From assembly GCA_045563015.1 (NCBI GenBank), contig JBJKUQ010000014.1:11433-75432 (forward strand): a DNA stretch of 64,000 nucleotides, in the 5' to 3' direction. Origin of the DNA: Alphaproteobacteria bacterium. GTDB taxonomy: Bacteria > Pseudomonadota > Alphaproteobacteria > Methylaequorales > Methylaequoraceae. Within the stretch, counting starts at the first letter, position 1, and each line of letters opens with the position of its first letter. Below are positions 7,470 to 25,338 of this stretch, piece after piece. The notes beneath the pieces were generated by a model. It was not told the DNA's origin. It did not search any database and saw only the letters and a program-made list of their open reading frames with translations. The translations under genes and the position numbers were made by a program.

Positions 7470-7507
7470 TACAACACAAATCGTTTAATTTTTTTTCAAA
7501 TATAATT

Positions 7508-7524
7508 TGTCATAAAATTGTTAC
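7508..7524 (+). promoter_or_regulatory. Pho-box-like direct repeat upstream of the porin gene
   Basis: TGTCATaaaatTGTTAC: two hexamers with 11-bp phasing, about 60 bp upstream of the porin start. Resembles the sites at 13570 and 19413. Confidence 0.6.
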
Positions 7525-9060: not shown

Positions 9061-9087
9061 AAAAGGCCCTTCGGGGCCTTTTTTTTT
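9061..9087 (+). terminator. Rho-independent terminator after the porin gene
   Basis: aaaaGGCCCttcgGGGCC followed by a T9 run. It is the clearest GC hairpin plus U-tract I found in the window. Confidence 0.85.
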
Positions 9088-9090
9088 ATA

Positions 9091-9127
9091 TGTAATAGTT
9101 TGTAATAATTTTGACACAAAATGTTGT
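9091..9127 (+). promoter_or_regulatory. Pho-box-like repeat cluster upstream of plcP
   Basis: TGTAATagttTGTAATaatttTGACACaaaaTGTTGT: four TGTnAn-type hexamers at 10-11 bp phasing, ending 13 bp before the plcP ATG. Confidence 0.5.
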
Positions 9128-9139
9128 TATTTTTAAAAT

Positions 9140-9943: not shown

Positions 9944-9950
9944 AAGATCA

Positions 9951-12444: not shown

Positions 12445-12744
12445 ATGAATTGGGTGTTAGTTTTCATAACCTTTATTGGACCACTCTATGACTCTGAGGG
12501 TTTTATTAAAGATATTGAAGCAGATATTTCTCTTATACACAATTCGGAAATAGTCTGTACGTACACTTCGACAATTATTAATGGAAAGTTAAAAGCTTCC
12601 CGTAATTTTGAAAATAGTGGAGTAACTCTAGAAAAAGAGATTACCATTTGCTTAACTGATAGTCAGCTTGATTACTTCAAGAAAACATCCAATGATAAGT
12701 TATCTAGTCAAATTGAAATTAATAATATAATCAAGAATTTCTAG
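12445..12744 (+). CDS. Hypothetical 99-aa protein with a hydrophobic N-terminus
   Basis: ORF only, no family recognised. Its start overlaps the stop of a 25-codon upstream ORF (12371-12448) in an ATGA arrangement. Confidence 0.4.
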   Translation: MNWVLVFITFIGPLYDSEGFIKDIEADISLIHNSEIVCTYTSTIINGKLKASRNFENSGVTLEKEITICLTDSQLDYFKKTSNDKLSSQIEINNIIKNF

Positions 12745-13478: not shown

Positions 13479-13487
13479 TGTTTAAAT

Positions 13488-13523
13488 CCGTTATGTCCTT
13501 AAAGTATAATTAGGGCATAATGG
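13488..13523 (+). terminator. Stem-loop after the Lys-rich gene (possible terminator, no U-tract)
   Basis: CCGTTATGTCC, 14-nt loop, GGGCATAATGG. An 11-bp stem if two G-U pairs are allowed. No T-run follows. Confidence 0.3.
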
Positions 13524-13550
13524 ACTTAACTATTAATTCGATAGGAAGTT

Positions 13551-13600
13551 TGTAAAACACTGTCAAAACAGTCATAAAACTGTAACAATCGTAAAGTAAC
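13551..13600 (+). promoter_or_regulatory. Pho-box cluster upstream of gap-arsJ-ppk-ppx
   Basis: TGTAAAacacTGTCAAaacaGTCATaaaacTGTAACaatcGTAAAG. The 19-mer GTCATAAAACTGTAACAAT (13571-13589) is identical to the pstS upstream site (19414-19432). Confidence 0.65.
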
Positions 13601-13608
13601 GATATCAA

Positions 13609-14607
13609 ATGGTTACATACGGAATCAACGGAATTGGAAGGATTGGAAAGTTTGCACTTAAAGCACTTATTAAGAGAGAGGCTAAAGTTTCCTGGATAAA
13701 TGATTCTTCGGGAACTGTTGATTTACATCGTCATCTTCTTGAATATGACTCAGTTCATGGAAAATGGGATGCTGATTTTAGTAATGATGAAAAATCTATC
13801 ACTATAAATGATAAAAAAATAATCTTTCAAACAAACTCTACTATTGAAAATATTGAGTTGGGAGATGTTGATATTGTTATTGATTGTACTGGTTATTATA
13901 AATCAAGATCTAAACTTTTGAATTACTTTAACAAGGGAGTTAAAAAAGTTGTCGTATCTGCTCCCATTGAAGATGAAAATATAGTTAATATTGTCTACGG
14001 GGTTAATCAAGATATCTACGATTCCAAAAAATACGATATAGTTACTGCTGCAAGCTGTACTACTAACTGTCTTGCACCGATTGTTAAAGTGATTCATGAA
14101 AATATAGGCATAAAACACGGGTCAATTACAACAATTCACAACCCAACAAATACCCAAACAATAGTTGATAAGGCCAATAAAGAATTTCGAAGAGCAAGAT
14201 CTGCACTCAATTCTCTAATTCCAACAACCACAGGAAGCGCTAAAGCAATTACTCTAATTTATCCTGAATTACTAGGAAAATTAAATGGTCAAGCCGTACG
14301 AGTGCCTCTTTTAAATTCATCCTTGACTGATTGTGTATTTGAAGTTTCTCGGAAAACAAACAAGAAAGAAATAAATAATCTTCTTAAAAAAGCTTCTGAA
14401 CAAGAACTTAGAGGAATATTAGGTTATGAGGAAAAGCCACTCGTTTCTACTGATTACCTGAGTGATAAAAGGTCAGCAATAATTGATGCTGATTGTACAA
14501 TGGTTATTAACGAAACACAGGTAAAAATTTATGCGTGGTATGATAATGAAATTGGTTATGCTGAGCGACTAATAGATGTATCCCAGATGGTAGGGTCATT
14601 GTTGTGA
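13609..14607 (+). CDS. gap: Glyceraldehyde-3-phosphate dehydrogenase (ArsJ-partnered type)
   Basis: 332 aa. GINGIGRIG NAD-binding motif, catalytic SCTTNCLAP, WYDNE near the C-terminus. Its stop overlaps the arsJ start (GTGA at 14604-14607). Confidence 0.9.
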   Translation: MVTYGINGIGRIGKFALKALIKREAKVSWINDSSGTVDLHRHLLEYDSVHGKWDADFSNDEKSITINDKKIIFQTNSTIENIELGDVDIVIDCTGYYKSRSKLLNYFNKGVKKVVVSAPIEDENIVNIVYGVNQDIYDSKKYDIVTAASCTTNCLAPIVKVIHENIGIKHGSITTIHNPTNTQTIVDKANKEFRRARSALNSLIPTTTGSAKAITLIYPELLGKLNGQAVRVPLLNSSLTDCVFEVSRKTNKKEINNLLKKASEQELRGILGYEEKPLVSTDYLSDKRSAIIDADCTMVINETQVKIYAWYDNEIGYAERLIDVSQMVGSLL

Positions 14608-15863
14608 AAAATATTTATCAAAAACAGAAAACTTTCATTTTAATAACGCTTTCATATTGGTCTTTCATGCTCACCGATGGTGCTCTGAGAATGATAGTTT
14701 TATTACATTTTCACTCTATGGGGTTTACACCTATTGAACTAGCTTACCTATTTCTTGTTTATGAGTTAGCAGGAATTATTACGAATTACTTCGGAGGTTG
14801 GTTAGCTTCACGATTTGGTCTAAAGAGTACGTTGTTTTCCGGTTTGTCAATTCAAATAGTCTCTTTAACGCTACTTTTAATGCTTGATAAAAGTTGGGCT
14901 TTAGAGCTATCAATTATTTATGTTATGATCGTTCAGGGCTTTAGTGGAATTGCAAAAGATCTCACGAAAATGTCGTCAAAATCAGTTGTAAAGTTTATTG
15001 CATCAAATAAAAAGGGAAACTTATTTAAATTAGTTTCATTTCTTACTGGCTCAAAGAATGCCTTAAAGGGGTTAGGTTTTCTTGTTGGAGGCTTATTACT
15101 TTCAACTTTTGGTTTTGAATCTTCTTTAACTCTGATGATTCTTTTATTAGTTGGAATATTAATAATAGTTATGATTTCTATCTCCTCCGAACTACCATGC
15201 GGTAACAAAAAGGTAAGGCTTTCTGATATTAGATCAAAATCAAGAAATATAAATTATTTATCTTTGGCAAGAGTTTTCCTTTTTGGCTCTAGGGATGTTT
15301 GGTTTGTAGTTGGTGTTCCTGTTTATTTTTATAGTTTTTTTTCAGTTACTGAACAACAAACTAATTCAACACCATTTTTTATAGTTGGTGGCCTAATGGC
15401 TATTTGGGTTATCTTCTACGGTATTGTTCAAGCTATGGGACCATCAATAATAAATTTAAAAACAAAATCTGAACAATCATTAGTAAATGAATCAAAAAAA
15501 TGGTGTAAATTTTTATTTATAACATTGTTAATATTCACTTTTTTAATTTACTTAGTCAGCAAGTCTGAACAAATACAATTAATAATTACTATTATTCTAT
15601 TGATTACTTTTGGATTTATCTTTGCCGTAAATTCGTCTTTACATTCATATTTAATTTTAAAATTTACGAAAAAAGAAAGGGTTGCCCTAGATGTAGGTTT
15701 TTATTATATGGCAAACGCATTTGGAAGATTCTTTGGAACTCTATTTTCTGGAATTTCATATCAATTTGGAGGCATAATTTTTTGCTTAGCAACTTCGACA
15801 ATGATGATAATGATAAATGTCTTTTTTACAAATAAATTGAGTATTAACAAAGAGGCTTTTTAA
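14604..15863 (+). CDS. arsJ: MFS permease of the ArsJ family (1-arseno-3-phosphoglycerate efflux)
   Basis: 419 aa, about 12 TM segments. The N-terminus YWSFMLTDGALRMIVLLHFHSMGFTPIELAYLFLVYELAGIITN and ...QGFSGIAKDLTKMSSKS match the ArsJ signature as I recall it. Obligate gap-arsJ gene pairing. Confidence 0.75.
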   Translation: MKNIYQKQKTFILITLSYWSFMLTDGALRMIVLLHFHSMGFTPIELAYLFLVYELAGIITNYFGGWLASRFGLKSTLFSGLSIQIVSLTLLLMLDKSWALELSIIYVMIVQGFSGIAKDLTKMSSKSVVKFIASNKKGNLFKLVSFLTGSKNALKGLGFLVGGLLLSTFGFESSLTLMILLLVGILIIVMISISSELPCGNKKVRLSDIRSKSRNINYLSLARVFLFGSRDVWFVVGVPVYFYSFFSVTEQQTNSTPFFIVGGLMAIWVIFYGIVQAMGPSIINLKTKSEQSLVNESKKWCKFLFITLLIFTFLIYLVSKSEQIQLIITIILLITFGFIFAVNSSLHSYLILKFTKKERVALDVGFYYMANAFGRFFGTLFSGISYQFGGIIFCLATSTMMIMINVFFTNKLSINKEAF

Positions 15864-15866
15864 AGA

Positions 15867-17969
15867 ATGGTAAGAAAAAATAAAAATAATATTAAAAAAA
15901 GTCCCCAAAGATTTATTAACAGAGAATTATCCTGGTTGAGTTTTAATGAAAGAGTTCTACAAGAAGCCCAAAATAACAACAACCCTATTCTTGAGAGATT
16001 AAGATTTTTGTCCATTTCGGGAAATAATTTAGATGAGTTTCACATGGTAAGAGTTGCCGGTTTATTTAGGCAACTCAAAAAAAAAATTTTTATCCGAACC
16101 TCAGATGGACGGACTACTAGACAGCAATACCAAGATGTTGCTAAATCTATGAAAGTAATTCTAAAAAAACAACAATTAGTCTTATCTGATTTGAGGAAGA
16201 AGTTAGAGAAAGAAAAAATAAGAATCATTGATTCCCCAAAAAATATAAAAAAAAAACGTGATATAGTTAATAAAATCTTTGAGAAAAAAATCTTTTCAAC
16301 ACTAACACCTTTAGCAATTGATCCTGCACATCCTTTTCCGTTCTTACCAAATCTGAGTTTGAGTTTAGTTTGCTCATTAAAAAATAAAGCTGGGAAAACT
16401 ACTTATTCTTTGGTTATTTTACCTCCCAAGTTAAAAAGATTTTTTAAAATAAGTAAAAAAGAAGATAGTTTCGTAAGCTCTGAAAATATAATCAAACAAA
16501 ATTTAGAATCTATTTTTCCTGATTATGAACTAGCTCAATATACTTTTATCAGAATAATCAGAGATAGTGATATAGAATTCGAAGAGGAGGCTGAGGATCT
16601 TCTTCTATCATTCGAAACAGCATTAAAAAAAAGACGTCGTGGTGAGGTTGTTGGTTTATACGTTCAAGGAAGAGTAGAGAAGAAATTACTAAACTTTCTA
16701 AGAAAATCTTTAAAAGTTAAAGATGAAAGTATTTTTCGCTTAAAATCAATTTTAGATGTTAGTTCTCTTAATGAACTTATTGATGAAAAAAAATTATCCC
16801 TTTGCTTCAAACCTTTTAAATCAAGATACCCACAAAGAATATTAGATTTTAATGGAAAATGTTTTTCTGCCATTAAAAAAAAGGATATACTTATACATCA
16901 TCCATTTGAAAGTTTTGATGTTGTAGTAGACTTTTTACAACAGGCATCAAAAGATCCTAAGGTTATTTCAATAAAACAAACTCTTTACAGAACTAGTTCT
17001 GAATCACCAATTATCGAGGCATTAAAGACAGCATCAAATAATGGGAAGTCTGTAACAGCAGTAGTTGAATTAAAAGCAAGGTTTGATGAAGAAAAAAATC
17101 TAAAATGGGCGAAGGATCTTGAAAGATCAGGGGTAAGCATTGTTTATGGTTTTCTCAAATGGAAAACACATGCAAAAATTTCTTTGATTTCAAGACAAGA
17201 AGGTGATGATATAACCTCTTATGTTCATTTTGGAACTGGAAATTATCATCCGATTACAGCTAAAATTTATACAGACCTATCGTATTTTTCTTGTAACGAA
17301 GAGTTGGTGAATGATGCCTTAAAAATTTTTAATTTTATTACAGGTTATACAAAACCTCAAAAAATGCAGTTAATTTCATATTCGCCAACTTTACTTAGAA
17401 ACTTTATGATAGAGCTCATTGATAACGAAATAATTAACTCAAGGAAAAAATTGCCAGCAGAAATTTGGATTAAAGTTAATTCATTAATTGATGATGAAAT
17501 GATCGATAAACTTTATGAAGCCTCTCAAGCAGGAGTAAAAATTTTTCTTATAGTTAGAGGAATATGTGGTTTACGTCCTGGTGTTAAAAATTTATCTGAA
17601 AATATTTTTGTTAAAAGTTTGATAGGTAGATTTTTAGAACACAGTCGAATATATTGCTTTGCAAATGGGAAAAAAATGCCTGATAAACAAAATAAAATTT
17701 TCATCTCATCTGCTGATATGATGACAAGAAATCTCGATAGGCGAGTCGAAACCTTTATTCCAATTATCAATAATACTGTTCATAAGCAAGTTTTAGAGCA
17801 GATAATGACCAATTATTTAAAAGATAATGCAAACAGTTGGATTTTAGATCATAATGGAGTATATAAAAAAATAAAAAAAGGTAGTGTTTTTTCTACATAT
17901 AATTTTTTTATAAATAACCCGTCATTATCTGGTAGAGGTTCACACTTACAAACAAATGAAAAAAAATAA
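15867..17969 (+). CDS. ppk: Polyphosphate kinase 1
   Basis: 700 aa. FINRELSWLSFNERVLQEA N-terminus, two PLD-like HxK regions (..KTHAKISLI..). Confidence 0.95.
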   Translation: MVRKNKNNIKKSPQRFINRELSWLSFNERVLQEAQNNNNPILERLRFLSISGNNLDEFHMVRVAGLFRQLKKKIFIRTSDGRTTRQQYQDVAKSMKVILKKQQLVLSDLRKKLEKEKIRIIDSPKNIKKKRDIVNKIFEKKIFSTLTPLAIDPAHPFPFLPNLSLSLVCSLKNKAGKTTYSLVILPPKLKRFFKISKKEDSFVSSENIIKQNLESIFPDYELAQYTFIRIIRDSDIEFEEEAEDLLLSFETALKKRRRGEVVGLYVQGRVEKKLLNFLRKSLKVKDESIFRLKSILDVSSLNELIDEKKLSLCFKPFKSRYPQRILDFNGKCFSAIKKKDILIHHPFESFDVVVDFLQQASKDPKVISIKQTLYRTSSESPIIEALKTASNNGKSVTAVVELKARFDEEKNLKWAKDLERSGVSIVYGFLKWKTHAKISLISRQEGDDITSYVHFGTGNYHPITAKIYTDLSYFSCNEELVNDALKIFNFITGYTKPQKMQLISYSPTLLRNFMIELIDNEIINSRKKLPAEIWIKVNSLIDDEMIDKLYEASQAGVKIFLIVRGICGLRPGVKNLSENIFVKSLIGRFLEHSRIYCFANGKKMPDKQNKIFISSADMMTRNLDRRVETFIPIINNTVHKQVLEQIMTNYLKDNANSWILDHNGVYKKIKKGSVFSTYNFFINNPSLSGRGSHLQTNEKK

Positions 17970-19401
17970 ATCTCCTTTTGCTGTTATAGACATTGGCTCA
18001 TCTTCAGTTAGATTAGTTATCTTTGACTCAGTTAGTTATTCAGCAAATACAGTTTTCAACGAAAAGGTAATTATGAATTTAGGAAAAATTATATGTTCTA
18101 ATCGATCTTTTTCAAAAAAAATGATTGAGGAGTTAATTATTGTTTTAAAAAGATTTTTTGAGATTTCAAAAAACATAAAGAAAAAAAATATCATTGTTTT
18201 TGGATCTGCAGCTGTAAGAATAGCAAAAAATAAGCAAATATTGGTAAACTTAATTTTAAAAAAATTTGGAATTCGATTAAAAGTTTTAAGTGAAAAGGAA
18301 GAAGGCCTTCTCGCTGCAAAAGGATTATTTTTTTCAAGAAATATAGTTAATGGATTAGTTGGAGACTTTGGTGGAGGAAGCCTAGAATTAGTTAAAGTAA
18401 AAAAAAGAGACCAATCAGAATTTCTTGGGTCATCAAATTTAGGTCATGTAGTACTTCAAGGTTTAGGTCAGCCAGATGGAGTCGTTATTTCAAATTTTAT
18501 AGATAGAAATTTAAAAAAAATTGAATCTAAAAACTTTGAGAATTTCTATGCAATAGGTGGGTCCTTTAGGGCATTAGCAAAAATTCACATGCATATCGAA
18601 AATGATGATATTAAAATAATTCAAGACTACTCCGCTAATGCTGAAAATTTTATTCATTCAATCAGAAAAGTAATGTTCAAAGGGGGTACAATTAACGAAA
18701 ATTTCCTAAAAAAAATTTCCAAGTCTAGGTGTCAGATAATTCCTTACAGCTTTGTTATTTTAGAAAAAATTGTAAAAAAATTTAAAATTAAAAATATCTA
18801 TTTTACAAATACAGGAATAAGAGAAGGAATACTTTACGAAAACATAAGTGAAAAGGAAAGTGATCCCTTTTTTTTACAGGTTAAGAAAATTTCAAATTCA
18901 GCTAAGACTAAGAATGTAAAAAAAATTTTCGACTGGGTAAAATCATTTGATGGTAACATAAAATTATGCGACAGAATTGTCAAAGCAGCTTGTTGGTTGA
19001 TGAATATAGGATCCAACATTCATCCAGAGCATAGACGTGTTTTTGCATTAGAAGAGATTCTATATTATCCATTCAATCATTTAGAAAGAAAAGATAGGTA
19101 TCTTTTATCTTTAATTCTTTATTTCAGATATTCAAACTCTATTAAAGATAAATTTGTAACAACTTACACAAGCAAAGTTTCACCTCGTGAATTGGAAAGT
19201 TGTAAAGTTCTTGGGCAGTTGCTTAGAATAGTCCATCATTTGACTGGAAGACTAAACTACAAAGTTCTTAAGCTTTGTAAAATTAGTATGACAAAAAAAA
19301 ATAAAGTATCCTTGAAAATTAACAAAGATCCGCATTTAGTTTTCAGTCAATCTCTCAATAGGGGAATTGAAAATATATCTAATATATACAAAAATAATTA
19401 A
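17956..19401 (+). CDS. ppx: Exopolyphosphatase (Ppx/GppA family)
   Basis: 481 aa. ASKHA N-terminus AVIDIGSSSVRLVIF, GDFGGGSLEL, C-terminal HD-like region. Overlaps ppk by 14 nt. Confidence 0.85.
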   Translation: MKKNKSPFAVIDIGSSSVRLVIFDSVSYSANTVFNEKVIMNLGKIICSNRSFSKKMIEELIIVLKRFFEISKNIKKKNIIVFGSAAVRIAKNKQILVNLILKKFGIRLKVLSEKEEGLLAAKGLFFSRNIVNGLVGDFGGGSLELVKVKKRDQSEFLGSSNLGHVVLQGLGQPDGVVISNFIDRNLKKIESKNFENFYAIGGSFRALAKIHMHIENDDIKIIQDYSANAENFIHSIRKVMFKGGTINENFLKKISKSRCQIIPYSFVILEKIVKKFKIKNIYFTNTGIREGILYENISEKESDPFFLQVKKISNSAKTKNVKKIFDWVKSFDGNIKLCDRIVKAACWLMNIGSNIHPEHRRVFALEEILYYPFNHLERKDRYLLSLILYFRYSNSIKDKFVTTYTSKVSPRELESCKVLGQLLRIVHHLTGRLNYKVLKLCKISMTKKNKVSLKINKDPHLVFSQSLNRGIENISNIYKNN

Positions 19402-19412
19402 AAATAAAATTA

Positions 19413-19440
19413 TGTCATAAAACTGTAACAATTCTGTAAT
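19413..19440 (+). promoter_or_regulatory. Pho box (three phased direct repeats) upstream of pstS
   Basis: TGTCATaaaacTGTAACaattcTGTAAT: hexamer starts at 19413, 19424 and 19435, exactly 11 bp apart, about 60 bp upstream of pstS. Confidence 0.75.
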
Positions 19441-19501: not shown

Positions 19502-20554
19502 ATGAAAAAAACTATGTTAGTCGCAGCTGCTCTGACTATTGGTTTATCTAGCCAGGTCAGTTCACGTGATCAAATTAAAATCGTTGGGTCTTCAACGGTA
19601 TATCCTTTTGCAACAGTTGTTGCTGAAAGATTTGGAAAAACAAGTGGTTTTAAAACGCCAGTAATTGAGTCAACTGGCTCAGGGGGCGGATTAAAGCTTT
19701 TTTGTGCTGGATTAGGTACTGAACATCCAGATATAACTAATGCTTCTAGAAGAATAAAAATGAAAGAAGTAAAGAAATGTACTGAAAATGGTGTTACCGA
19801 CATTACTGAAATTAAAGTTGGTTTTGATGGTATTGCAATGGCAAATGCCAAATCTGCACCAATGTTAGAGCTAACTTTAAAAGATGTTTACTTAGCTTTA
19901 GCAAAGGATGTTCCAGCTGACCCTGAAGGAAACACAGTTAAACCTAACCCATACAAAATGTGGAATGAAGTTAACCCAGCTCTTCCTGCCAAGCCTATTG
20001 TAGTTATTGGACCGCCTCCAACTTCTGGAACGCGAGATGCTTTTAACGAGCTTGCTATCGAAAGAGGCTGTAAAAAGTTTCCTGGAAGAAAAGCTTTAAA
20101 AAAAACTAACAAAAAACTTTATAAACAGCAGTGTAGAAGCGTTAGGGAAGATGGTCCATTCGTTGAGGCTGGTGAAAATGATAATTTAATCATTGAAAAA
20201 TTAGTTGCTGACCCAAACGCATTAGGAGTTTTTGGTTATTCTTTTTTAGATCAAAATAGAGATAAAGTGAAAGCCGCCAAGGTTGATGGCGTTTTTCCTG
20301 AATTTGAAGCAATCTCCTCTGGAAAGTATCCTGTTTCGAGATCTTTATTCTTTTATGTAAAAAATGCTCATGCATCTGTTATTCCAGGTGTTAAAGAATA
20401 TGTAAGAGAATTTACTGCAAGCAAGACAATAGGAAACGACGGTTATTTAGTCCCCAAAGGTCTAATACCACTCCCAGAAGGTGAAAGAGCAAAATTTGAA
20501 CAAGATGGTAAATCTTTGGCAAAATTTGACGCTAAAGCTCTTCAGAAGAAGTAA
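19502..20554 (+). CDS. pstS: Phosphate ABC transporter substrate-binding protein
   Basis: 350 aa. Signal peptide, IKIVGSSTVYPF, ESTGSGGG, TSGTRD motifs. Strong SD AGAGAGGAAA. Confidence 0.9.
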   Translation: MKKTMLVAAALTIGLSSQVSSRDQIKIVGSSTVYPFATVVAERFGKTSGFKTPVIESTGSGGGLKLFCAGLGTEHPDITNASRRIKMKEVKKCTENGVTDITEIKVGFDGIAMANAKSAPMLELTLKDVYLALAKDVPADPEGNTVKPNPYKMWNEVNPALPAKPIVVIGPPPTSGTRDAFNELAIERGCKKFPGRKALKKTNKKLYKQQCRSVREDGPFVEAGENDNLIIEKLVADPNALGVFGYSFLDQNRDKVKAAKVDGVFPEFEAISSGKYPVSRSLFFYVKNAHASVIPGVKEYVREFTASKTIGNDGYLVPKGLIPLPEGERAKFEQDGKSLAKFDAKALQKK

Positions 20555-20563
20555 GCTTTAAAT

Positions 20564-21949
20564 ATGGGGTTTTGGTCCTTTTTAATCATCTTTTGTTTTC
20601 TTAGCTTTTACATCCATTGGTATGGAACTACAAAAGCTCTTAAAATTAACGAAGAGATTACAAAAGGATCAAAACTACCTTCCCTCCCTTCTTATTATGG
20701 AACATATTCATTTTTGTGGTTGTTGTTACCCAGTTTAATAATACTTATTTGTTGGTTTTTTTTTAAACCTTACATAATTGACATCTTCCTTAAAGAATTT
20801 ATTCCACTAAGCCTTGTTGATAACTTCCAAGGCAACCCATCGATGCTTATCGATACAATCAAAGCTACAAACCCAGAAAAAGTTTTTCCAGGAACTAACC
20901 CTTTAATTATTGATTCCGCAGTTTATTATCAGACATTAAAAACTAGTTCTGATTCATATGTTTTTCTTTTAGTACTCGTTATAGGTTTAATTTCAAGTTT
21001 GGTTTCACTAAGAAAAGTCTCTACTTTTTTCAGGGCACGTCAAGCAGTTGAAAAAACAAATATAAACCTTTTAATTTTTTGTTCAGTAATTGCAATTATT
21101 ACAACTGTAGGAATTATTTTTTCATTAATTTTTGAGGCCATTAGATTTTTTGAAAGAGTCCCTTTTTTTGATTTTTTATTTGGTTTAAGCTGGAGCCCTC
21201 AAACTGCTATTAGAGAAGATCAGATAGCAAGCCAGGGTTCATTCGGAGCTGTACCAATTTTCACAGGAACACTTTTAATTACCTTAGTTGCAATGGCTGT
21301 TGCTATCCCTGTTGGTCTTCTATCAGCAATTTATCTGGCAGAATACGCCAGACCAACTGTAAGAAAAACCTTCAAGCCAATTCTTGAAATATTAGCTGGA
21401 GTTCCAACAGTCGTTTACGGTTTTTTTGCTGCAATAACGGTTGGTCCATTTTTGAAGGATTTTGTTTCATCTTTAGGGTTATCGATGGCTTCAGAAAGTG
21501 CATTGGCAGCAGGAGGAGTTATGGGAATAATGATTATCCCGTTTATTTCTTCATTATCAGACGATGTAATAACATCTGTTCCGATGTCACTTAGAGACGG
21601 GTCATATGCTATGGGTGCTACTAAATCAGAAACTATTAAAAAAGTTATTTTACCTGCTGCACTCCCAGGAATAGTAGGAGCAATTTTATTAGCAATTTCA
21701 CGTGCAATTGGCGAAACAATGATTGTTGTTATGGCTGCAGGAATTGCAGCAAATCTTACTGCAAACCCTTTAGAGGCAGTAACCACTGTAACTGTACAAA
21801 TTGTAACGCTATTAGTAGGCGACCAAGAATTTGATAGTGCAAAAACCCTCGCTGCATTTGCTCTCGGAATAACTTTATTTTTTGTAACTCTGTTATTGAA
21901 TTTATATGCACTAAAAATTGTCCAGAAATACAGAGAAAGATATGAGTAA
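20564..21949 (+). CDS. pstC: Phosphate ABC transporter permease PstC (long form)
   Basis: 461 aa, polytopic. ABC permease loop ..SRAIGETMIV... Confidence 0.9.
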   Translation: MGFWSFLIIFCFLSFYIHWYGTTKALKINEEITKGSKLPSLPSYYGTYSFLWLLLPSLIILICWFFFKPYIIDIFLKEFIPLSLVDNFQGNPSMLIDTIKATNPEKVFPGTNPLIIDSAVYYQTLKTSSDSYVFLLVLVIGLISSLVSLRKVSTFFRARQAVEKTNINLLIFCSVIAIITTVGIIFSLIFEAIRFFERVPFFDFLFGLSWSPQTAIREDQIASQGSFGAVPIFTGTLLITLVAMAVAIPVGLLSAIYLAEYARPTVRKTFKPILEILAGVPTVVYGFFAAITVGPFLKDFVSSLGLSMASESALAAGGVMGIMIIPFISSLSDDVITSVPMSLRDGSYAMGATKSETIKKVILPAALPGIVGAILLAISRAIGETMIVVMAAGIAANLTANPLEAVTTVTVQIVTLLVGDQEFDSAKTLAAFALGITLFFVTLLLNLYALKIVQKYRERYE

Positions 21950-23219
21950 AAACACTGAATTAATAAGTAAATCGCTTGAAAAAAGGCATAGAAAAGAAAA
22001 AAGATTTAGATTTTTTGGAATTCTAGGAATTGGTACTGCTGTTATATTTTTAGTAACGATTCTGTCTTCAATTTTCATAGAAGGAAAAAGTGCATTCAAA
22101 AGTACTTTTATACAATTAGAGATTAATTTTGACCAAGAAATCATTGATCCCAACAAAACCAATAACCCCGAAGAATTTAAGTTTGCGAATTATAAATTAT
22201 TAATAAATGATGGTTTAAAAAACTATTTTCCCGAAGTAAAAGATAGAAAAACTTTCAGGGATCTTTCTGTTTTTATTTCATCAGCAGCAGAGCAAAATCT
22301 TATGAAGCTTGCTATGGAAAATATTGAAATTATTGGAGAATCAAAAAAAATTTGGTTATTAGCATCATCTACAATTGATGTTATCCATAAAAACCCTCAG
22401 ATGGAAAATTTTTTAGAAGAAGATAGATTGATAAATAACATTCAAATGAGCTGGTTTAATGCCTTGAAGAAAAATGGAGATATAAAATTTGGGTTAAATA
22501 CGAATTTCTTGTCAAATGCAGACTCAACAGAACCTGAGCAAGCAGGTATTCTAGGGTCAATGTTAGGTTCTTTTTTTACATTACTTGTTACATTATTATT
22601 ATGTTTTCCTGTTGCTGTCGCCTCGGGTGTGTTCTTAGAAGAACTAGCTCCCAAAAATAAATTTACAGACTTTATTGAAATTAATATCAATAATCTTGCG
22701 GCAGTTCCTTCAATAATTTTTGGGCTTTTGGGCTTAGCTATTTTTTTAAACGTAATGCATTTACCAAGATCAGCTCCAATTGTAGGAGGGATGGTTCTGG
22801 CTCTCATGACCTTACCAACAATTATTATTTCTACAAGAGCATCACTAAAAGCTGTTCCCCCTTCAATCAGAGAAGCGGCTATTGGACTAGGTGCAACAAA
22901 ATTCCAAGCAGTAATTCATCACGTTTTACCACAATCTATGCCTGGAATACTTACAGGAACCATTATTGGTATGTCACAAGCCTTAGGGGAGTCAGCTCCT
23001 CTTTTAATGATAGGTATGGTTGCCTTTATTGTAGATATTCCAGGATCTTTTACTGATTCAGCTACAGTTCTACCAGTTCAAATTTACTTATGGAAAAGTA
23101 CTGCAGCTAGAGGTTTTGTGGAACTAACAGCAGCTGGAATAATGGTTCTTTTGACATTTTTAATAATTATGAATAGTGTAGCAGTTTTTGTTAGACAAAA
23201 GTTTGAAAAGAAATGGTAG
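21942..23219 (+). CDS. pstA: Phosphate ABC transporter permease PstA (long form)
   Basis: Track ORF starts at a TTG at 21918. The ATG at 21942 (MSKNTELI...), overlapping pstC by 8 nt, is more likely. Permease loop ..[14 protein letters not shown]... Confidence 0.9.
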
Positions 23220-23991
23220 TAACATCGTGAAAGAAACTGTCAAAATTAAGAGCAAAAAACTTAATGTTTTTTATGGAGAAAATAAAGCTCTTTCTAACAT
23301 AAACTTGGAAATTCCTGAAAGAAAAGTAACATCTCTTATCGGTCCTAGTGGATGCGGTAAGTCCACTTTTCTTCGTTGTCTTAATAGAATGAATGATAGC
23401 ATTGAAATATGTAAGATAGAGGGTCAAATCTTTGTAGACGAACAAAATATATATGAAAAAAACCTTGATCCAGTTTTACTGAGAGCAAGAATTGGTATGG
23501 TTTTTCAGAAACCCAACCCTTTCCCGAAATCAATTTTTGAAAATGTAGCCTACGGGCCAAAAATACATGGGTTAACAAACAGTGGGGATGAACTTAGTAA
23601 ATTAGTCGAAGTAAGCTTAAAGAAAGCAGGTCTTTATGATGAGGTAAAAGATAGAATAGATGAACCTGGAACATCTTTGTCCGGTGGACAACAGCAACGA
23701 TTATGCATTGCAAGAGCTATTGCTGTTAGCCCTGAGGTAATCCTCATGGATGAACCTTGCTCTGCTCTTGATCCGATAGCAACAGCTAAAATCGAAGAGC
23801 TAATTGACGAATTATCAAAAAATTATACAATTGTAATAGTGACTCACTCAATGCAACAAGCAGCAAGAGTGTCCAACCAAACTGCTTTTTTTCACATGGG
23901 TAGTCTTATAGAAGTTGGAAAAACCGATGAGGTTTTCTCAATGCCTAAGGAAAAAAAGACCCAGGACTACATAACAGGAAAGATAGGTTAA
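23188..23991 (+). CDS. pstB: Phosphate ABC transporter ATP-binding protein
   Basis: Walker [10 protein letters not shown], signature LSGGQQQRL, Walker B ILMDEP. The track start is a TTG at 23188. The GTG at 23227, 8 nt after the pstA stop, is an equally plausible start. Confidence 0.95.
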
Positions 23992-23992
23992 A

Positions 23993-24652
23993 ATGAAAGA
24001 ACACATTGTTTCAACTTATGACGAAGATCTAAGTTTACTCAAATCAAACTTGATTGAAATGGGTTTGAATTGTGAAAAACAGTTATTCAATGCAATAAAT
24101 ATCACTAGAATAATTAGTATAGAAAAAGCCAATGAAATCATTAAGAATGATCATGAGATTGATATTCAAGAAAGAAAAATAAGAGAGCTTGCAACAACAA
24201 CCCTTAGTAAAAGGCAGCCTCTTGCAGACGATCTTAGAAGAATAATAATTGCACTTAAAATCTCTAGTATTTTAGAAAGAATAGGAGATCATGCCTCAAA
24301 TATTGCAGGTAGGATTCTTCATGTAAAAAAAGCTCCTGAAAGCTATTTAACAGATTCAATATTTCAATTGGGTAAATTGGTTATAAAAAATTTTTCAAAC
24401 GCCTTAAGTTCATACGATCAAGAGTCACAAAAAATTGCTCAGATTGTCCCCACAGAAGATATTACAATTAATTCTGTCTATGAAACTTGTTTTAGAGAAC
24501 ATTTGCACTTAATGATGGAAGAGCCAAAGATTATAGGTTTTTGTACCCAAATGTTATTTATTGCCAAAGAGCTAGAGAGAATTGGAGACTTATCAAAAGT
24601 TATTTCGAAAGAAGTAATTTACAACTTAAAGGGTAAGTTAGTAAAAAGATGA
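23993..24652 (+). CDS. phoU: Phosphate signalling accessory protein PhoU
   Basis: 219 aa. Two PhoU repeats (..ERIGDHASNIA.., ..ERIGDLSKVI..). Confidence 0.9.
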   Translation: MKEHIVSTYDEDLSLLKSNLIEMGLNCEKQLFNAINITRIISIEKANEIIKNDHEIDIQERKIRELATTTLSKRQPLADDLRRIIIALKISSILERIGDHASNIAGRILHVKKAPESYLTDSIFQLGKLVIKNFSNALSSYDQESQKIAQIVPTEDITINSVYETCFREHLHLMMEEPKIIGFCTQMLFIAKELERIGDLSKVISKEVIYNLKGKLVKR

Positions 24653-25338
24653 GTGAGAAAAAAAGAATTTTAGTAGTTGAAGATGACACAGCTTTACTTC
24701 CTATGATTTCTTATAATCTTCAAAAAAACGGGTTTTCAGTTAAAGAAGCAACTAATGGCGAAGAAGCCTTGTTACTTGTAAAAGAAGAAATACCATCATT
24801 AGCTATAATTGATTGGATGATTCCTGCTCCTTCAGGGTTAGAAGTTTGCAGAATATTGAGAAGAAAAAAAGAAACTTCATCTATTCCAATTATTATTCTT
24901 TCGGCAAAAGGTGAAGAAGAAGATAAGATACGTGGCCTGGATACGGGAGCTGACGATTACATAACAAAGCCATTTAGCCCAGCTGAATTAGTTGCAAGAA
25001 TTAACTCTCTATTAAGAAGATCATCTTCCAATTCAACTGAAATAATTGAGTTTCAAGACATATCAATAAATCTTAACGAACATAAAGTTTACAGAGGTGA
25101 AAAAAAGATTCACCTAGGCCCAACAGAATATAAACTTTTAAAACATTTAATGGAAAATCCAGGAAGAGTATATTCACGAGAACAACTTTTGGATTCTGTC
25201 TGGGGTCATGGTATTTATGTTGAATCGAGAACAGTTGATACTCACATAAGACGACTTAGAAAAGCCATTAATACAAAAGGTACAAAAAACTTTATACGTA
25301 CAGTTCGCGCAGCAGGATACTCCATAGACTACGAATAA
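24649..25338 (+). CDS. phoB: Phosphate regulon response regulator PhoB (OmpR family)
   Basis: 229 aa. Receiver ILVVEDD...IIDWMIP...LSAKG...KPF, winged helix ..RTVDTHIRRLRKAI.. ATGA overlap with phoU. Confidence 0.9.
   Translation: MSEKKRILVVEDDTALLPMISYNLQKNGFSVKEATNGEEALLLVKEEIPSLAIIDWMIPAPSGLEVCRILRRKKETSSIPIIILSAKGEEEDKIRGLDTGADDYITKPFSPAELVARINSLLRRSSSNSTEIIEFQDISINLNEHKVYRGEKKIHLGPTEYKLLKHLMENPGRVYSREQLLDSVWGHGIYVESRTVDTHIRRLRKAINTKGTKNFIRTVRAAGYSIDYE

What the first reader, a model, noticed from the sequence alone, without database searches (positions are those of the whole stretch)
13551..19401. gap-arsJ-ppk-ppx appears to be one Pho-box-driven operon: arsenate detoxification wired to P starvation and polyphosphate turnover
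Seen in sequence: the gap stop overlaps the arsJ start (GTGA at 14604-14607), the arsJ-ppk gap is 3 nt, and ppk and ppx overlap by 14 nt. The only promoter-like spacer is 13479-13608, which carries the Pho-box cluster. No arsR, arsC or arsB is in the window. Established knowledge: GAPDH plus ArsJ confers arsenate resistance by forming and exporting 1-arseno-3-phosphoglycerate (Chen, Yoshinaga, Garbinski and Rosen 2016). Arsenate also enters cells through phosphate uptake systems. Inference: this organism induces arsenate export through PhoB rather than an arsenic sensor, at the moment high-affinity Pst uptake is induced. It co-expresses that export with polyP synthesis and degradation. PhoB control and ppk/ppx linkage are not part of the ArsR-controlled ars operons I know of.
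Basis: partly seen in the sequence, partly recalled or inferred. Interest (0 to 1): 0.65.

Follow-up and report, generated by a model that had tools for sequence, protein, structure and literature searches.

The report
Phosphate-starvation-controlled arsenate export operon
In an uncultured marine alphaproteobacterium, the two-gene arsenate-export system (GAPDH plus ArsJ) has no arsenic sensor nearby and sits with polyphosphate genes behind a phosphate-starvation (PhoB) promoter inside a 20-kb phosphate island; the wiring looks real and recurs in other low-GC marine bacteria, but similar links were already seen in cyanobacteria.

Summary
The only spacer (13479-13608) holds a terminator-like hairpin and one strong Pho box (13569-13586, 16/18 to the E. 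coli consensus). Its 19-nt core recurs upstream of pstS. Similar boxes precede a phosphate porin and a PlcP-like lipid-remodelling gene. No other ars gene was found in the window. The box and its 22-nt distance to the ATG are kept in a relative with 64% GAPDH identity. Pho boxes are enriched upstream of gap-arsJ operons (15/62 vs 6/273 control promoters). Thirteen of 21 low-GC ArsJ loci are linked to pst/pho genes in several architectures, against 2 of 70 high-GC loci, which mostly carry arsR-arsC instead. Caveats: there is one solid box, not a cluster. The 3' end is open, so read-through into pstS is possible. The ppk-ppx linkage is confined to one lineage and is probably a juxtaposition of two Pho modules. 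There are no expression data. Novelty is overstated: P-limitation induction of gap/arsJ was measured in Nodularia, and ppk is a standard Pho-regulon member. Verdict: a new variant of a known kind, of moderate interest.

The parts
6201..7469 (+). Histidine kinase, PhoR candidate; left edge of the phosphate island (next to mutS)
   Evidence: Pfam HisKA + HATPase_c. Homologues at 36-37% identity sit next to pstS in L063 and L070. Not tested against a PhoR-specific model.
7507..7524 (+). Pho box upstream of the phosphate-selective porin gene (7569-9038)
   Evidence: TTGTCATAAAATTGTTAC, 3 mismatches to the E. coli consensus. The porin is Pfam Porin_O_P, 103 bits. A TATGTT hexamer lies 10 bp downstream of the box.
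9100..9117 (+). Weaker Pho-box-like site upstream of the PlcP-like metallophosphoesterase (9140-9943) and the GT4-diacylglycerol-kinase fusion (9951-11348)
   Evidence: TTGTAATAATTTTGACAC, 13/18. It lies 22 nt from box end to ATG, the same as gap. TATTTT sits 10 bp after the box. It is preceded by an intrinsic terminator at 9064-9089.
13482..13529 (+). Hairpin after the upstream ORF (12822-13478); likely terminator or insulator that sets the 5' boundary of the operon
   Evidence: -23.1 kcal/mol, z = -4.2. Equivalent hairpins with different sequences occur in L001, L034 and L022 (-24 to -28 kcal/mol, z -4.4 to -7.3).
13550..13567 (+).
   Evidence: Spacing is 9-10 bp rather than 11. The core is mutated in L001/L002, which are otherwise about 95% identical.
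13569..13586 (+). Pho box of the gap promoter (PhoB-binding site, inferred)
   Evidence: CAGTCATAAAACTGTAAC, 16/18 to the E. coli consensus. The 19-mer 13571-13589 is identical to 19414-19432 upstream of pstS. The box is conserved in L001/L002 and L034 (TTGTCATAAAACTGTAAT) at the same 22-nt distance from the ATG.
13597..13602 (+). Putative -10 hexamer (TAACGA), which would place the transcription start at or next to the gap ATG (leaderless or near-leaderless mRNA); inference only
   Evidence: The hexamer lies 10 bp after the box, as in E. coli Pho promoters (background knowledge). Equivalent hexamers are TACTGG (L034), TACTGC (L022) and TAATAC (L009), each 5-6 nt before the ATG. The alternative TAAAGT is CAAAGT in L001/L002. 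gap has no Shine-Dalgarno (-0.4 kcal/mol).
13609..14607 (+). gap: ArsJ-associated phosphorylating glyceraldehyde-3-phosphate dehydrogenase
   Evidence: NF033735 at 518.8 bits, above the 450 cut-off. Catalytic SCTTNC Cys, the active-site His, and the RRAR and VRVP arginines align to Geobacillus GAPDH 3dbv.
14604..15863 (+). arsJ: MFS exporter of 1-arseno-3-phosphoglycerate (function by homology)
   Evidence: NF033734 equivalog at 491.2 bits, above the 400 cut-off. It is 50-57% identical over full length to ArsJ proteins of arsR-arsC-gap-arsJ operons. The GTG start overlaps the gap stop.
15867..17969 (+). ppk1: polyphosphate kinase 1
   Evidence: TIGR03705 at 852.7 bits; all four PPK domains present. 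An AAGAGG Shine-Dalgarno lies inside the arsJ 3' end.
17956..19401 (+). ppx: Ppx/GppA-family phosphatase (exopolyphosphatase likely)
   Evidence: PF02541 + PF21697. TIGR03706 scores 201.8, below the 307 cut-off. It overlaps ppk by 14 nt.
19412..19440 (+). pstS Pho boxes: three TGTMA repeats at exact 11-bp spacing
   Evidence: ATGTCATAAAACTGTAACAATTCTGTAAT. The sequence is perfectly conserved in L007, whose flanking spacer and Pst proteins have diverged (PstC/A about 69%).
19502..25338 (+). pstS-pstC-pstA-pstB-phoU-phoB, directly downstream on the same strand; possibly also reached by read-through from the gap promoter
   Evidence: NCBIfam equivalogs. No hairpin in the ppx-pstS spacer (-5.8 kcal/mol, z = 0.6). 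The PhoB DNA-binding domain is closest to E. coli PhoB.

Best explanation
The four genes form the 5' part of a PhoB-activated transcription unit inside a roughly 20-kb phosphate-starvation island: phoR candidate, phosphate porin, PlcP-like lipid-remodelling genes, gap-arsJ-ppk-ppx, then pstSCAB-phoU-phoB. The proposed mechanism has six steps. (1) When phosphate is scarce, PhoR phosphorylates PhoB. (2) PhoB~P binds the single Pho box at 13569-13586, which takes the place of a -35 element. (3) RNA polymerase starts at or next to the gap ATG, about 22 nt downstream, giving a leaderless or near-leaderless polycistronic mRNA. (4) arsJ, ppk and ppx are translated from Shine-Dalgarno sites embedded in the preceding genes. 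Transcription may continue into pstS, which also has its own stronger Pho-box promoter. (5) GAPDH condenses arsenate, which enters through the induced high-affinity Pst system, with glyceraldehyde-3-phosphate into 1-arseno-3-phosphoglycerate. ArsJ exports it and it falls apart outside the cell. (6) No arsenic sensor, reductase or arsenite pump is involved locally, so phosphate starvation serves as the proxy signal for arsenate risk. PPK1 and PPX are ordinary Pho-regulon polyphosphate genes that became joined to gap-arsJ in this lineage. Their co-expression reflects shared regulation, not a mechanistic link to arsenate export. Shown here: gene identities, junctions, the motif and its statistics, conservation and synteny. 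Inferred: PhoB binding, activation rather than repression, the start site, co-transcription, and the arsenate function (by homology to the characterised Pseudomonas system).
For: Gene identities exceed curated cut-offs and the GAPDH active site is intact. Junctions of -4, +3 and -14 nt are confirmed. A Pho box with 2 mismatches to the independent E. coli consensus sits in the only spacer, and the window has 5 hits where 0.46 are expected, with 0/100 shuffles reaching 5. The same 19-mer occurs upstream of pstS. The pstS box is invariant in diverged L007. Boxes also precede a phosphate porin and a PlcP-like gene. The PhoB DNA-binding domain is closest to E. coli PhoB (2e-30 against 5e-18 for the next family), and the recognition helix is nearly identical. 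A structure-conserved, sequence-divergent hairpin isolates the operon from the upstream gene in four lineages, while the internal junctions and the ppx-pstS spacer are unstructured. L034 (GAPDH 64%, ArsJ 53%) keeps the gap-arsJ-ppk-ppx order, a 2-mismatch box and the same 22-nt box-to-ATG distance. L022 keeps the order and distance, and L009 has a distance of 21 nt. Pho boxes with <=4 mismatches lie upstream of 15/62 non-redundant gap-arsJ operons, against 0.9% of random windows (p = 1.6e-17) and 6/273 other promoter regions (Fisher p = 4.9e-8). In low-GC loci 13/21 are linked to pst/pho/ppk genes, with 1 ArsR and 0 ArsC nearby. In high-GC loci 2/70 are Pho-linked, with 40 ArsR and 39 ArsC nearby. 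Pho linkage takes at least five architectures in at least four ArsJ lineages, including pstS-gap-arsJ-pstCAB. Internal genes have good Shine-Dalgarno sites (-5.8 to -7.0 kcal/mol) and gap has none. In the literature, ArsJ-associated gap and arsJ were induced under P limitation in Nodularia (PMC9846622), and ppk is a common Pho-regulon member (PMC4415409).
Against: There are no transcript data. Internal promoters inside coding sequence cannot be excluded, because sigma-70-like matches are as common as in shuffled sequence in this AT-rich DNA (74 against 65.7). The inferred -10 (TAACGA) is weak, and about half of all genes here lack a Shine-Dalgarno, so the leaderless start is only suggestive. 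In L022 the box is degenerate (5 mismatches) and arsJ and ppk are separated by about 50-90 nt. An ArsR encoded outside the 64-kb window could still act on this promoter. The ArsJ route discards one phosphate (as 3-phosphoglycerate) for every arsenate exported, which is an odd cost for a phosphate-starved cell unless the phosphate is recaptured outside. The function of this ArsJ rests on about 46-57% identity to homologues, not on any assay. L007 and L008 show the module is dispensable: only a truncated arsJ remnant remains there.
Confidence: 0.6

Rival explanations
1. Mechanistic coupling. Arsenate export and polyphosphate turnover are wired together for a functional reason. For example, polyphosphate cycling could buffer the phosphate lost as 3-phosphoglycerate, or supply phosphate so that GAPDH and ATP synthesis discriminate against arsenate.
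For: The gap-arsJ-ppk-ppx order is kept across lineages with only 63-64% GAPDH and 53-54% ArsJ identity (L022, L034). The junctions are very tight in the window and in L034.
Against: The linkage is confined to one lineage that also shares flanking synteny (fae, the coiled-coil ORF). All other Pho-linked gap-arsJ loci lack ppk-ppx. ppk-ppx is an operon on its own in many bacteria and a standard Pho-regulon member (PMC4415409). HIMB59 phosphate islands carry ppk and ppx, and that paper mentions neither arsenic nor an island-encoded GAPDH or MFS transporter in HIMB59 (PMC10734472). In L022 there is a spacer between arsJ and ppk.
Confidence: 0.12
2. Dual or arsenic-dependent control. An ArsR encoded elsewhere in the genome also represses this promoter, so expression needs arsenic as well as, or instead of, phosphate starvation.
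For: In about 40 high-GC loci gap-arsJ follows arsR-arsC, with a conserved palindrome over the start codon. Several of these also carry Pho-box-like repeats (for example L003 GTGTCATGAAACTGTAAC), which shows that the two controls can coexist.
Against: No ArsR was found in the window in any frame. No conserved palindrome exists in the gap promoter: the ATCGT..ACGAT repeat is broken in L001/L002. Only 1 of 21 low-GC ArsJ loci has an ArsR nearby.
Confidence: 0.12
3. A different physiological role. In Pho islands the GAPDH and MFS pair serves phosphorus metabolism rather than detoxification. For example, the transporter could move a phosphorylated three-carbon compound, as organophosphate:phosphate MFS antiporters do.
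For: The pair is repeatedly embedded in phosphate-uptake operons, even between pstS and pstC (L070, L076). No other arsenic gene is nearby. The ArsJ route costs one phosphate per arsenate.
Against: Both proteins pass NCBI's curated cut-offs (the MFS_ArsJ equivalog model and the ArsJ-associated GAPDH model), which are built around the characterised system. They are full-length homologues (50-57%) of proteins in arsR-arsC operons. The arsenate function of the pair was shown experimentally in Pseudomonas aeruginosa DK2 (Chen et al. 2016, as summarised in PMC6205960). Arsenate entry through Pst gives a direct rationale.
Confidence: 0.08
4. The motif is not an activating PhoB site for gap. It could be a chance or relic copy, or a roadblock for a promoter further upstream (TTTAAA-18-TATAAT at 13481-13510), so that PhoB would repress or have no effect.
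For: A 10/12 sigma-70-like match lies upstream at 13481-13510. The box ends only 22 nt before the ATG and the inferred -10 is poor.
Against: The upstream match lies inside the hairpin, with TATAAT in its loop. The box orientation and the 10-bp box-to-hexamer geometry match E. coli Pho promoters. The PlcP-like gene has the same geometry. The box and its position are conserved in L034 while the rest of the spacer is not. The motif is enriched at gap-arsJ promoters in general.
Confidence: 0.05

Closest known systems
GAPDH-ArsJ arsenate resistance module of ars operons (Pseudomonas aeruginosa DK2; Chen, Yoshinaga, Garbinski and Rosen 2016)
   Same: It has the same two proteins in the same order (gap then arsJ), with translational coupling. 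Both pass NCBI's curated models for this system. The presumed chemistry is the same: formation and export of 1-arseno-3-phosphoglycerate.
   Different: There is no arsR, arsC, arsB/acr3 or arsH nearby. The promoter carries a Pho box rather than an ArsR operator. The module is fused upstream of ppk-ppx and pstSCAB-phoU-phoB.
Cyanobacterial P-stress-linked gap/arsJ clusters: Nodularia arsR-sphX-gap-arsJ, Anabaena sphX-gap3, Prochlorococcus P-island gap1-mfs
   Same: An ArsJ-type GAPDH and MFS pair lies next to a PstS-like gene and responds to phosphorus stress. In Nodularia, gap rose by log2FC 1.57-2.41 and arsJ by 1.20 (PMC9846622). A Pho box was predicted for sphX-gap3 (PMC1906773). gap1 and mfs sit in P-acquisition islands (PMC10504305).
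   Different: Those clusters keep arsR nearby and lack ppk-ppx. They use the cyanobacterial SphR-type box (CTTAAC-like), not the CTGTCAT type. The host here is a heterotrophic alphaproteobacterium. I did not verify that the Prochlorococcus mfs is an ArsJ.
Rhodobacteraceae-type arsR-arsC(fusion)-gap-arsJ operons (about 40 loci in the survey)
   Same: ArsJ and GAPDH are homologous (50-57% and 60-70%). Some carry a Pho box at the promoter (L003, L026, L059 and others).
   Different: They encode an ArsR HTH fused or adjacent to an LMWP arsenate reductase and have a conserved palindrome over the start codon. The window has neither.
Classical Pho-regulon promoters (E. coli pstS, phoA) and the ppk-ppx operon
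   Same: The box has two 11-bp direct repeats with a CTGTCAT core in place of the -35 element (PMC4415409). ppk-ppx are adjacent or overlapping and ppk is Pho-dependent.
   Different: The box sits unusually close to the start codon (22 nt), implying a leaderless or very short-leader mRNA. ppk-ppx lack their own spacer and are appended to gap-arsJ.
Flexible phosphate genomic islands of streamlined marine Alphaproteobacteria (HIMB59; PMC10734472)
   Same: The gene content overlaps: pstSCAB, phoU, phoB/phoR, ppk, ppx/GppA, a metallophosphoesterase ('LpxH'), a glycosyltransferase and a diacylglycerol kinase. The content varies between close relatives (L007 against the window).
   Different: The text of that paper mentions no arsenic gene and no GAPDH or MFS transporter in the HIMB59 islands. 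Here gap-arsJ heads the ppk-ppx block. The organism is not shown to be HIMB59.

Membership tests
GAPDH-ArsJ arsenate efflux system | MFS transporter of the ArsJ family | tested here: met
   NF033734 MFS_ArsJ equivalog at 491.2 bits against a 400 cut-off, covering residues 10-412 of 419. It is 50-57% identical to named ArsJ proteins.
GAPDH-ArsJ arsenate efflux system | Adjacent, co-oriented ArsJ-associated phosphorylating GAPDH with an intact active site | tested here: met
   NF033735 at 518.8 bits against a 450 cut-off. SCTTNC, the active-site His, and the phosphate-site arginines are conserved against 3dbv. The gap stop overlaps the arsJ start.
GAPDH-ArsJ arsenate efflux system | Confers arsenate resistance by exporting 1-arseno-3-phosphoglycerate | not testable with these tools
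   This needs heterologous expression or vesicle transport. The function is known only for the Pseudomonas system (summarised in PMC6205960).
ArsR-controlled ars operon | arsR repressor and an ArsR operator at the promoter, usually with arsC and an arsenite pump | tested here: not met
   No ArsR or LMWP ArsC in six frames. No ars family among the window ORFs of 100 aa or more. No conserved palindrome in the promoter. An arsR outside the window cannot be excluded.
Pho regulon (PhoB-dependent promoter) | Pho box: two 7-bp CTGTCAT-like direct repeats at 11-bp periodicity, oriented toward the gene, in the -35 region | tested here: met
   CAGTCATAAAACTGTAAC matches the E. coli consensus at 16/18. 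The window has 5 hits where 0.46 are expected. The core is identical to the pstS site and is conserved in L034 at the same position.
Pho regulon (PhoB-dependent promoter) | Cognate PhoB (and PhoR) encoded by the organism, with matching DNA-binding specificity | tested here: met
   TIGR02154 PhoB at 325.2 bits against a 296.2 cut-off. The DNA-binding domain is closest to E. coli PhoB and the recognition helix is nearly identical. A histidine kinase candidate lies at 6201-7469, but it was not tested against a PhoR-specific model.
Pho regulon (PhoB-dependent promoter) | Induction by phosphate limitation that depends on PhoB | not testable with these tools
   No expression data exist for this uncultured organism. 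Indirect support comes only from Nodularia RNA-seq on homologues.
Operon (single transcription unit gap-arsJ-ppk-ppx) | Same strand, no internal terminator, short or overlapping junctions, one upstream promoter region | tested here: met
   Junctions are -4, +3 and -14 nt. No structure at arsJ-ppk. A hairpin lies upstream of the box.
Operon (single transcription unit gap-arsJ-ppk-ppx) | Demonstrated co-transcription and a defined 3' end | not testable with these tools
   No RNA data are available. No terminator was found between ppx and pstS, so the unit may extend to phoB.
PPK1/PPX polyphosphate pair | PPK1 with its four domains; an exopolyphosphatase of the Ppx/GppA family | tested here: inconclusive
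   PPK1 is clearly met (TIGR03705 at 852.7 bits). The second protein has the Ppx-GppA and Ppx_C domains but scores below the exopolyphosphatase-specific cut-off (201.8 < 307), so PPX and GppA activity cannot be told apart.

The most novel reading that the evidence does not exclude
GAPDH-ArsJ is a widespread member of the Pho regulon in marine bacteria, and I found no paper in the searched library that says so. Under this reading, streamlined low-GC oligotrophs have discarded the arsenic sensor and reductase. They use phosphate starvation as the only cue for arsenate export, to the point of inserting gap-arsJ between pstS and pstC. Rhodobacteraceae-type genomes run the same module from composite PhoB-plus-ArsR promoters. 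This would make arsenate export as an arsenylated sugar acid, which costs one phosphate per arsenate, a main arsenate defence of heterotrophs in phosphate-poor oceans. The window's gap-arsJ-ppk-ppx-pst super-operon would be the most integrated form.
Probability: 0.45. Interest if true: 0.6.

Novelty: new variant of a known kind. Interest (0 to 1): 0.45.

Why it matters
In phosphate-poor surface oceans arsenate can rival phosphate in concentration and enters cells through the same high-affinity uptake system that starvation induces. If heterotrophic bacterioplankton switch on arsenate export through the phosphate-starvation regulator alone, arsenate detoxification becomes part of the phosphorus-stress response rather than a separate arsenic response. 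gap/arsJ transcripts would then be markers of P stress, as pstS is. It would also mean these cells return arsenate, not arsenite or methylated arsenic, to seawater, at a cost of one phosphate per arsenate. That bears on marine arsenic speciation and on phosphorus budgets. The survey also yields a testable prediction in culturable organisms: Sulfitobacter and Ruegeria arsR-arsC-gap-arsJ operons should respond to both phosphate limitation and arsenic.

Tried and rejected
(1) A position weight matrix trained on the window's own sites was discarded as circular and replaced by the independent E. coli consensus. The upstream half-sites have the wrong spacing and are mutated in near-identical relatives. 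(3) TAAAGT (13592-13597) as the -10 was rejected because it is CAAAGT in L001/L002. (4) The upstream sigma-70-like match at 13481-13510 lies inside the hairpin. (5) An ATCGT..ACGAT inverted repeat between the box and the ATG was considered as an operator and rejected as not conserved. (6) The first background for the enrichment test (random windows, mostly coding) was too lenient, so a control of 273 promoter-bearing upstream regions was added. The enrichment held. (7) The first operon-walk script stepped past gap into the upstream ORF in the window-clade loci, and this was corrected. (8) Low-GC loci L038 and L084 were checked as possible Prochlorococcus islands. They are heterotrophs with housekeeping neighbours. 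(9) The primary papers Chen et al. 2016 (PMC4992400) and Martiny et al. 2006 (PMC1567916) are not held. Statements about them rest on reviews, figure legends and background knowledge. (10) Taxonomy could not be resolved beyond 'uncultured marine alphaproteobacterium', and membership of HIMB59 was not established. (11) The truncated arsJ in L007 was suspected to be an assembly chimera because of N bases at the breakpoint. The same breakpoint in the independent MAG L008 argues that it is real. (12) The NJ tree of ArsJ is used only qualitatively, because low-GC amino-acid composition may drive the deep clustering. (13) Rfam found only a tRNA in the window and no riboswitch or leader. (14) Literature searches for arsJ with 'Pho box' returned nothing. 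Searches with 'phosphate starvation' or 1-arseno-3-phosphoglycerate with Pho terms returned nothing relevant.

Full report
**1. What is in the sequence**

The window is about 29% G+C. On the + strand it carries four tightly joined ORFs.
- 13609-14607: an ArsJ-associated phosphorylating GAPDH (NF033735, 518.8 bits, cut-off 450).
- 14604-15863: an ArsJ-family MFS transporter (NF033734 equivalog, 491.2 bits, cut-off 400).
- 15867-17969: polyphosphate kinase 1 (TIGR03705, 852.7 bits).
- 17956-19401: a Ppx/GppA-family phosphatase. It has the Pfam Ppx-GppA and Ppx_C domains but scores below the exopolyphosphatase-specific cut-off.

The GAPDH keeps the catalytic SCTTNC cysteine, the active-site histidine and the phosphate-site arginines.

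- GTGA at 14604-14607.
- A 3-nt arsJ-ppk gap, with an AAGAGG Shine-Dalgarno inside the end of arsJ.
- A 14-nt ppk/ppx overlap.

**2. The surroundings change the picture**

The four genes are the middle of a phosphate-starvation island of about 20 kb, between mutS and a pfkB-family kinase. Its parts are:
- a histidine kinase, the PhoR candidate (6201-7469);
- a phosphate-selective porin (7569-9038);
- a PlcP-like metallophosphoesterase (9140-9943);
- a GT4 glycosyltransferase fused to a diacylglycerol kinase (9951-11348);
- an oppositely oriented fae gene;
- two unknown ORFs;
- gap-arsJ-ppk-ppx;
- pstS-pstC-pstA-pstB-phoU-phoB (19502-25338), directly downstream.

The ORFs outside the island that could be annotated are housekeeping genes. 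None of the ORFs of 100 aa or more belongs to an ars family. Profiles built from 29 ArsR and 38 LMWP-ArsC sequences find nothing in any of the six frames.

**3. The Pho box**

The spacer 13479-13608 contains CAGTCATAAAACTGTAAC at 13569-13586. This matches the E. coli consensus CTGTCATAWAWCTGTCAY at 16 of 18 positions.

Scanning the whole window with that independent consensus at up to 3 mismatches gives 5 hits where 0.46 are expected. None of 100 shuffles reaches 5. The two best hits are the gap site and a site upstream of pstS. A third precedes the porin gene.

The gap and pstS sites share an identical 19-mer that occurs nowhere else in the window (0.09 expected). The pstS site has three TGTMA repeats at exact 11-bp spacing. 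It is invariant in L007, a relative whose PstC and PstA are only about 69% identical and whose flanking spacer has diverged.

The organism's PhoB passes the PhoB equivalog model. Its DNA-binding domain matches E. coli PhoB far better than any other solved OmpR-family domain. The recognition helix is nearly identical (VESRTVDTHIRRLRKAI against VEDRTVDVHIRRLRKAL). Using the E. coli motif is therefore justified.

The additional half-sites at 13550-13567 have 9-10 bp spacing. Their core is mutated in relatives that are otherwise about 95% identical. There is one solid box.

**4. Promoter geometry and operon boundaries**

Between the stop of the upstream ORF and the box lies a strong hairpin (13482-13529, -23 kcal/mol, z = -4.2). 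Equivalent hairpins with unrelated sequences occupy the same place in L001, L034 and L022 (-24 to -28 kcal/mol, z down to -7.3). This conserved structure with divergent sequence is best read as the terminator of the upstream gene. It gives the gap operon its own 5' boundary.

In contrast, the arsJ-ppk junction and the 100-nt ppx-pstS spacer are unstructured, and no terminator-like site is predicted there. The 3' end is therefore open, and transcription may run on into pstS, which also has its own box.

The gap box ends only 22 nt before the ATG. The same distance is found in L001, L034 and L022, and it is 21 nt in L009, although the intervening sequences differ. The window's PlcP-like gene has the same 22-nt geometry, with a good TATTTT hexamer 10 bp after its box.

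With E. coli-like spacing (a hexamer 10 bp after the box; background knowledge), transcription would start at or next to the ATG. That implies a leaderless or near-leaderless mRNA. gap and the PlcP-like gene lack a Shine-Dalgarno, whereas arsJ, ppk, ppx and pstS have good ones. Because about half of all genes here lack one, this point is only suggestive.

**5. Relatives**

The organism is an uncultured marine alphaproteobacterium. Its closest relatives are the single-cell genomes AG-892-K07 and AG-899-D02 and metagenome contigs with full synteny at 94-99% protein identity. MutS homologues are unnamed or come from MAGs labelled Alphaproteobacteria or Rickettsiales. The window encodes glnD, which SAR11 lacks (abstract of PMC3870248).

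Two more distant contigs are L022 and L034, with GAPDH 63-64%, ArsJ 53-54% and PstS 88% identity. They keep the order gap-arsJ-ppk-ppx, followed by pstSCAB-phoU-phoB in L022. L034 has a 2-mismatch Pho box at the same position.

A sister lineage, represented by two independently assembled MAGs (L007, L008), retains only the 3' 40% of arsJ directly upstream of the pstS Pho box. It lacks gap, ppk and ppx there. Both MAGs share the breakpoint. The module is therefore dispensable and the island is flexible.

**6. Survey of ArsJ loci**

I collected 91 loci encoding ArsJ relatives. I annotated them by tblastn with the window's proteins and with ArsR and ArsC references, and then with profile HMMs. 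Two contexts separate sharply.

| Loci | n | ArsR within 4 kb | LMWP ArsC within 4 kb | Linked to pst/pho genes |
|---|---|---|---|---|
| High-GC | 70 | 40 | 39 | 2 |
| Low-GC (<47%) | 21 | 1 | 0 | 13 |

In the high-GC loci the ArsR and ArsC are typically a fused ArsR-ArsC protein directly upstream of gap.

The Pho linkage takes several different forms.
- Upstream of ppk-ppx-pst: the window clade, L022 and L034.
- Between pstS and pstC: L070 and L076.
- pstS-gap-arsJ: L023.
- Divergent from phoR or pstS: L055, L063 and L009.
- Downstream of pstSCAB-phoU-phoB: L021.
- Followed by pstS: L057.

These loci fall in at least four ArsJ lineages on a rough distance tree. Repeated independent association is strong comparative evidence for a functional tie between gap-arsJ and the phosphate-starvation response.

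**7. Pho boxes at gap-arsJ promoters in general**

I took the 220 nt upstream of the first gene of each gap-arsJ operon. A site with 4 or fewer mismatches to the E. coli consensus is present in 15 of 62 non-redundant loci. The comparison values are 0.9% of random windows from the same loci (binomial p = 1.6e-17) and 6 of 273 upstream regions of other promoter-bearing genes (Fisher p = 4.9e-8). Several of those control hits themselves lie next to pst or arsJ genes.

The enrichment is seen in all three contexts: Pho-linked (5/10), ArsR-type (5/33) and isolated pairs (5/19).

In ArsR-type operons a conserved palindrome covers the start codon and is probably the ArsR operator. A direct repeat GTCAY-N5-NTTCAY, with 11-bp periodicity, lies 35-95 nt upstream in 13 of 35 operons. 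Fourteen of its 33 occurrences in 764 kb of high-GC sequence are at this promoter. Sulfitobacter (L003) has a canonical box, GTGTCATGAAACTGTAAC. A pstS promoter in a high-GC (57%) locus of the same arsR-arsC type (L021) has CTGTCACAAAACTGTAAC. Composite PhoB-plus-ArsR promoters are therefore plausible in that group.

**8. How it most likely works**

PhoR and PhoB sense phosphate scarcity. PhoB~P binds the box and activates a transcript that starts near the gap ATG. The four genes are translated from one mRNA, and pstSCAB-phoU-phoB is induced in parallel from its own box.

Induced Pst brings in arsenate. GAPDH converts it to 1-arseno-3-phosphoglycerate and ArsJ exports it. That chemistry is taken from the Pseudomonas aeruginosa system as summarised in PMC6205960. 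It is not tested here. PPK1 and PPX adjust polyphosphate.

I consider the ppk-ppx linkage a lineage-specific juxtaposition of two Pho-regulon modules, for three reasons.
- It is absent from every other Pho-linked gap-arsJ locus.
- ppk is a standard Pho-regulon member (PMC4415409).
- Related phosphate islands carry ppk and ppx, and the paper describing them mentions neither arsenic nor an island-encoded GAPDH or MFS transporter (PMC10734472).

One unresolved oddity remains. The ArsJ route throws away one phosphate, as 3-phosphoglycerate, with each arsenate.

**9. Comparison with what is known, and novelty**

The GAPDH-ArsJ module and its chemistry are known. Phosphate-arsenic co-regulation is also known:
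- Agrobacterium (cited in PMC4415409);
- Crocosphaera arsB induced by P limitation (PMC11665274).

For this very gene pair there is prior evidence in cyanobacteria:
- Nodularia, where the ArsJ-associated gap and arsJ rose significantly under P limitation, in an arsR-sphX-gap-arsJ cluster (PMC9846622);
- Anabaena, where a Pho box was predicted upstream of sphX-gap3 (PMC1906773);
- Prochlorococcus, whose P-acquisition islands contain gap1 and an mfs transporter next to arsR, phoA, phoBR and pstS (PMC10504305). From memory, Martiny et al. 2006 reported their induction, but that paper is not held.

I found no paper in the searched library that links arsJ to a Pho box, or 1-arseno-3-phosphoglycerate to the Pho regulon.

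Three things appear new here.
- The arrangement itself, gap-arsJ-ppk-ppx behind a single Pho box with no arsenic sensor, in a heterotrophic alphaproteobacterium.
- The general pattern: Pho-box enrichment and the split between low-GC/Pho and high-GC/ArsR contexts.
- The conserved short box-to-ATG geometry.

I rate the finding a new variant of a known kind, with moderate interest. A specialist in marine phosphorus stress would find it sensible rather than startling. The survey does, however, give concrete predictions that can be tested in culture.

**10. Limits**

- Nothing here measures RNA or binding.
- Internal promoters cannot be excluded in AT-rich coding sequence.
- An ArsR outside the window is possible.
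- The survey loci are not phylogenetically independent, and many contigs are short.
- The variant repeat in high-GC genomes is assigned to PhoB by analogy only.
- The ArsJ function is inferred from homology.

Noticed in passing
window 9100-11348: A PlcP-like metallophosphoesterase and a single ORF fusing a GT4 glycosyltransferase to a prokaryotic diacylglycerol kinase domain follow a Pho-box-like site. That site has the same 22-nt box-to-ATG geometry as gap, with a TATTTT hexamer. This looks like a phosphate-sparing lipid-remodelling operon, but the fusion of a DAG kinase, which makes a phospholipid precursor, to the glycolipid synthase is unexpected.
   Followed up: partly
window 7569-9038; L001 3002-4426; L012: The phosphate-selective porin is only 54-59% identical between the window and its closest relatives (L001, L002, L012). 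The neighbouring genes are 93-99% identical. In L012 the PhoR candidate is also only 61% identical. This suggests allelic replacement or diversifying selection on the outer-membrane porin.
   Followed up: no
L007 10001-10519; L008 7986-8063: Two independently assembled MAGs carry the same truncated arsJ (residues 249-419 only), directly upstream of the pstS Pho box, with no gap, ppk or ppx. The remnant is 94% identical to the window's ArsJ, while PstS is 84% and PstC/A about 69% identical. This points to recent recombination with a window-like island followed by deletion.
   Followed up: partly
L070 1249-6202; L076: gap-arsJ is inserted inside a pst operon: phoR, Pho box, pstS, hairpin, gap, arsJ, a second Pho box (TTGTCATAAATTTGTTAC), then pstC-pstA-pstB-phoU-phoB. 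The contigs are marine and 38-39% GC, from an unidentified taxon.
   Followed up: partly
L003 8068-8955 and about 35 other high-GC loci: ArsR (HTH) and an LMWP-type arsenate reductase are encoded as one fused protein upstream of gap-arsJ. The promoter has a conserved palindrome over the start codon (such as CCATATTTCATGAAATATGG). In many loci a Pho-box-like direct repeat lies 35-95 nt upstream, suggesting combined phosphate and arsenic control.
   Followed up: partly
window 11464-12006 (- strand): A formaldehyde-activating enzyme gene (fae) sits on the opposite strand in the middle of the phosphate island. It is 99% conserved in close relatives and 82% in L022, so it is a stable and unexplained passenger of the island.
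   Followed up: no
window 12445-12744 and 12822-13478: Two ORFs with no family assignment lie just upstream of the gap operon. One is a 218-aa coiled-coil-like protein with a low-complexity, Lys/Ser/Thr-rich C-terminus. Both are syntenic in L022 and L034 but poorly conserved (37-71%).
   Followed up: no
window 40352-41011 (- strand): A 219-aa protein shows only an OmpR-type winged-helix DNA-binding domain (Trans_reg_C). No recognisable receiver domain was found at the threshold used.
   Followed up: no
window 17956-19401: The Ppx/GppA-family protein scores well below the exopolyphosphatase-specific NCBIfam cut-off (201.8 against 307) and is only 48-49% identical in L022 and L034. It is the fastest-evolving gene of the block, and its substrate (polyphosphate or pppGpp) is not settled.
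   Followed up: no
window 9064-9089: A textbook intrinsic terminator (GGCCCTTCGGGGCC followed by T9) follows the porin gene. Such GC-rich terminators are rare in this 29%-GC window.
   Followed up: no
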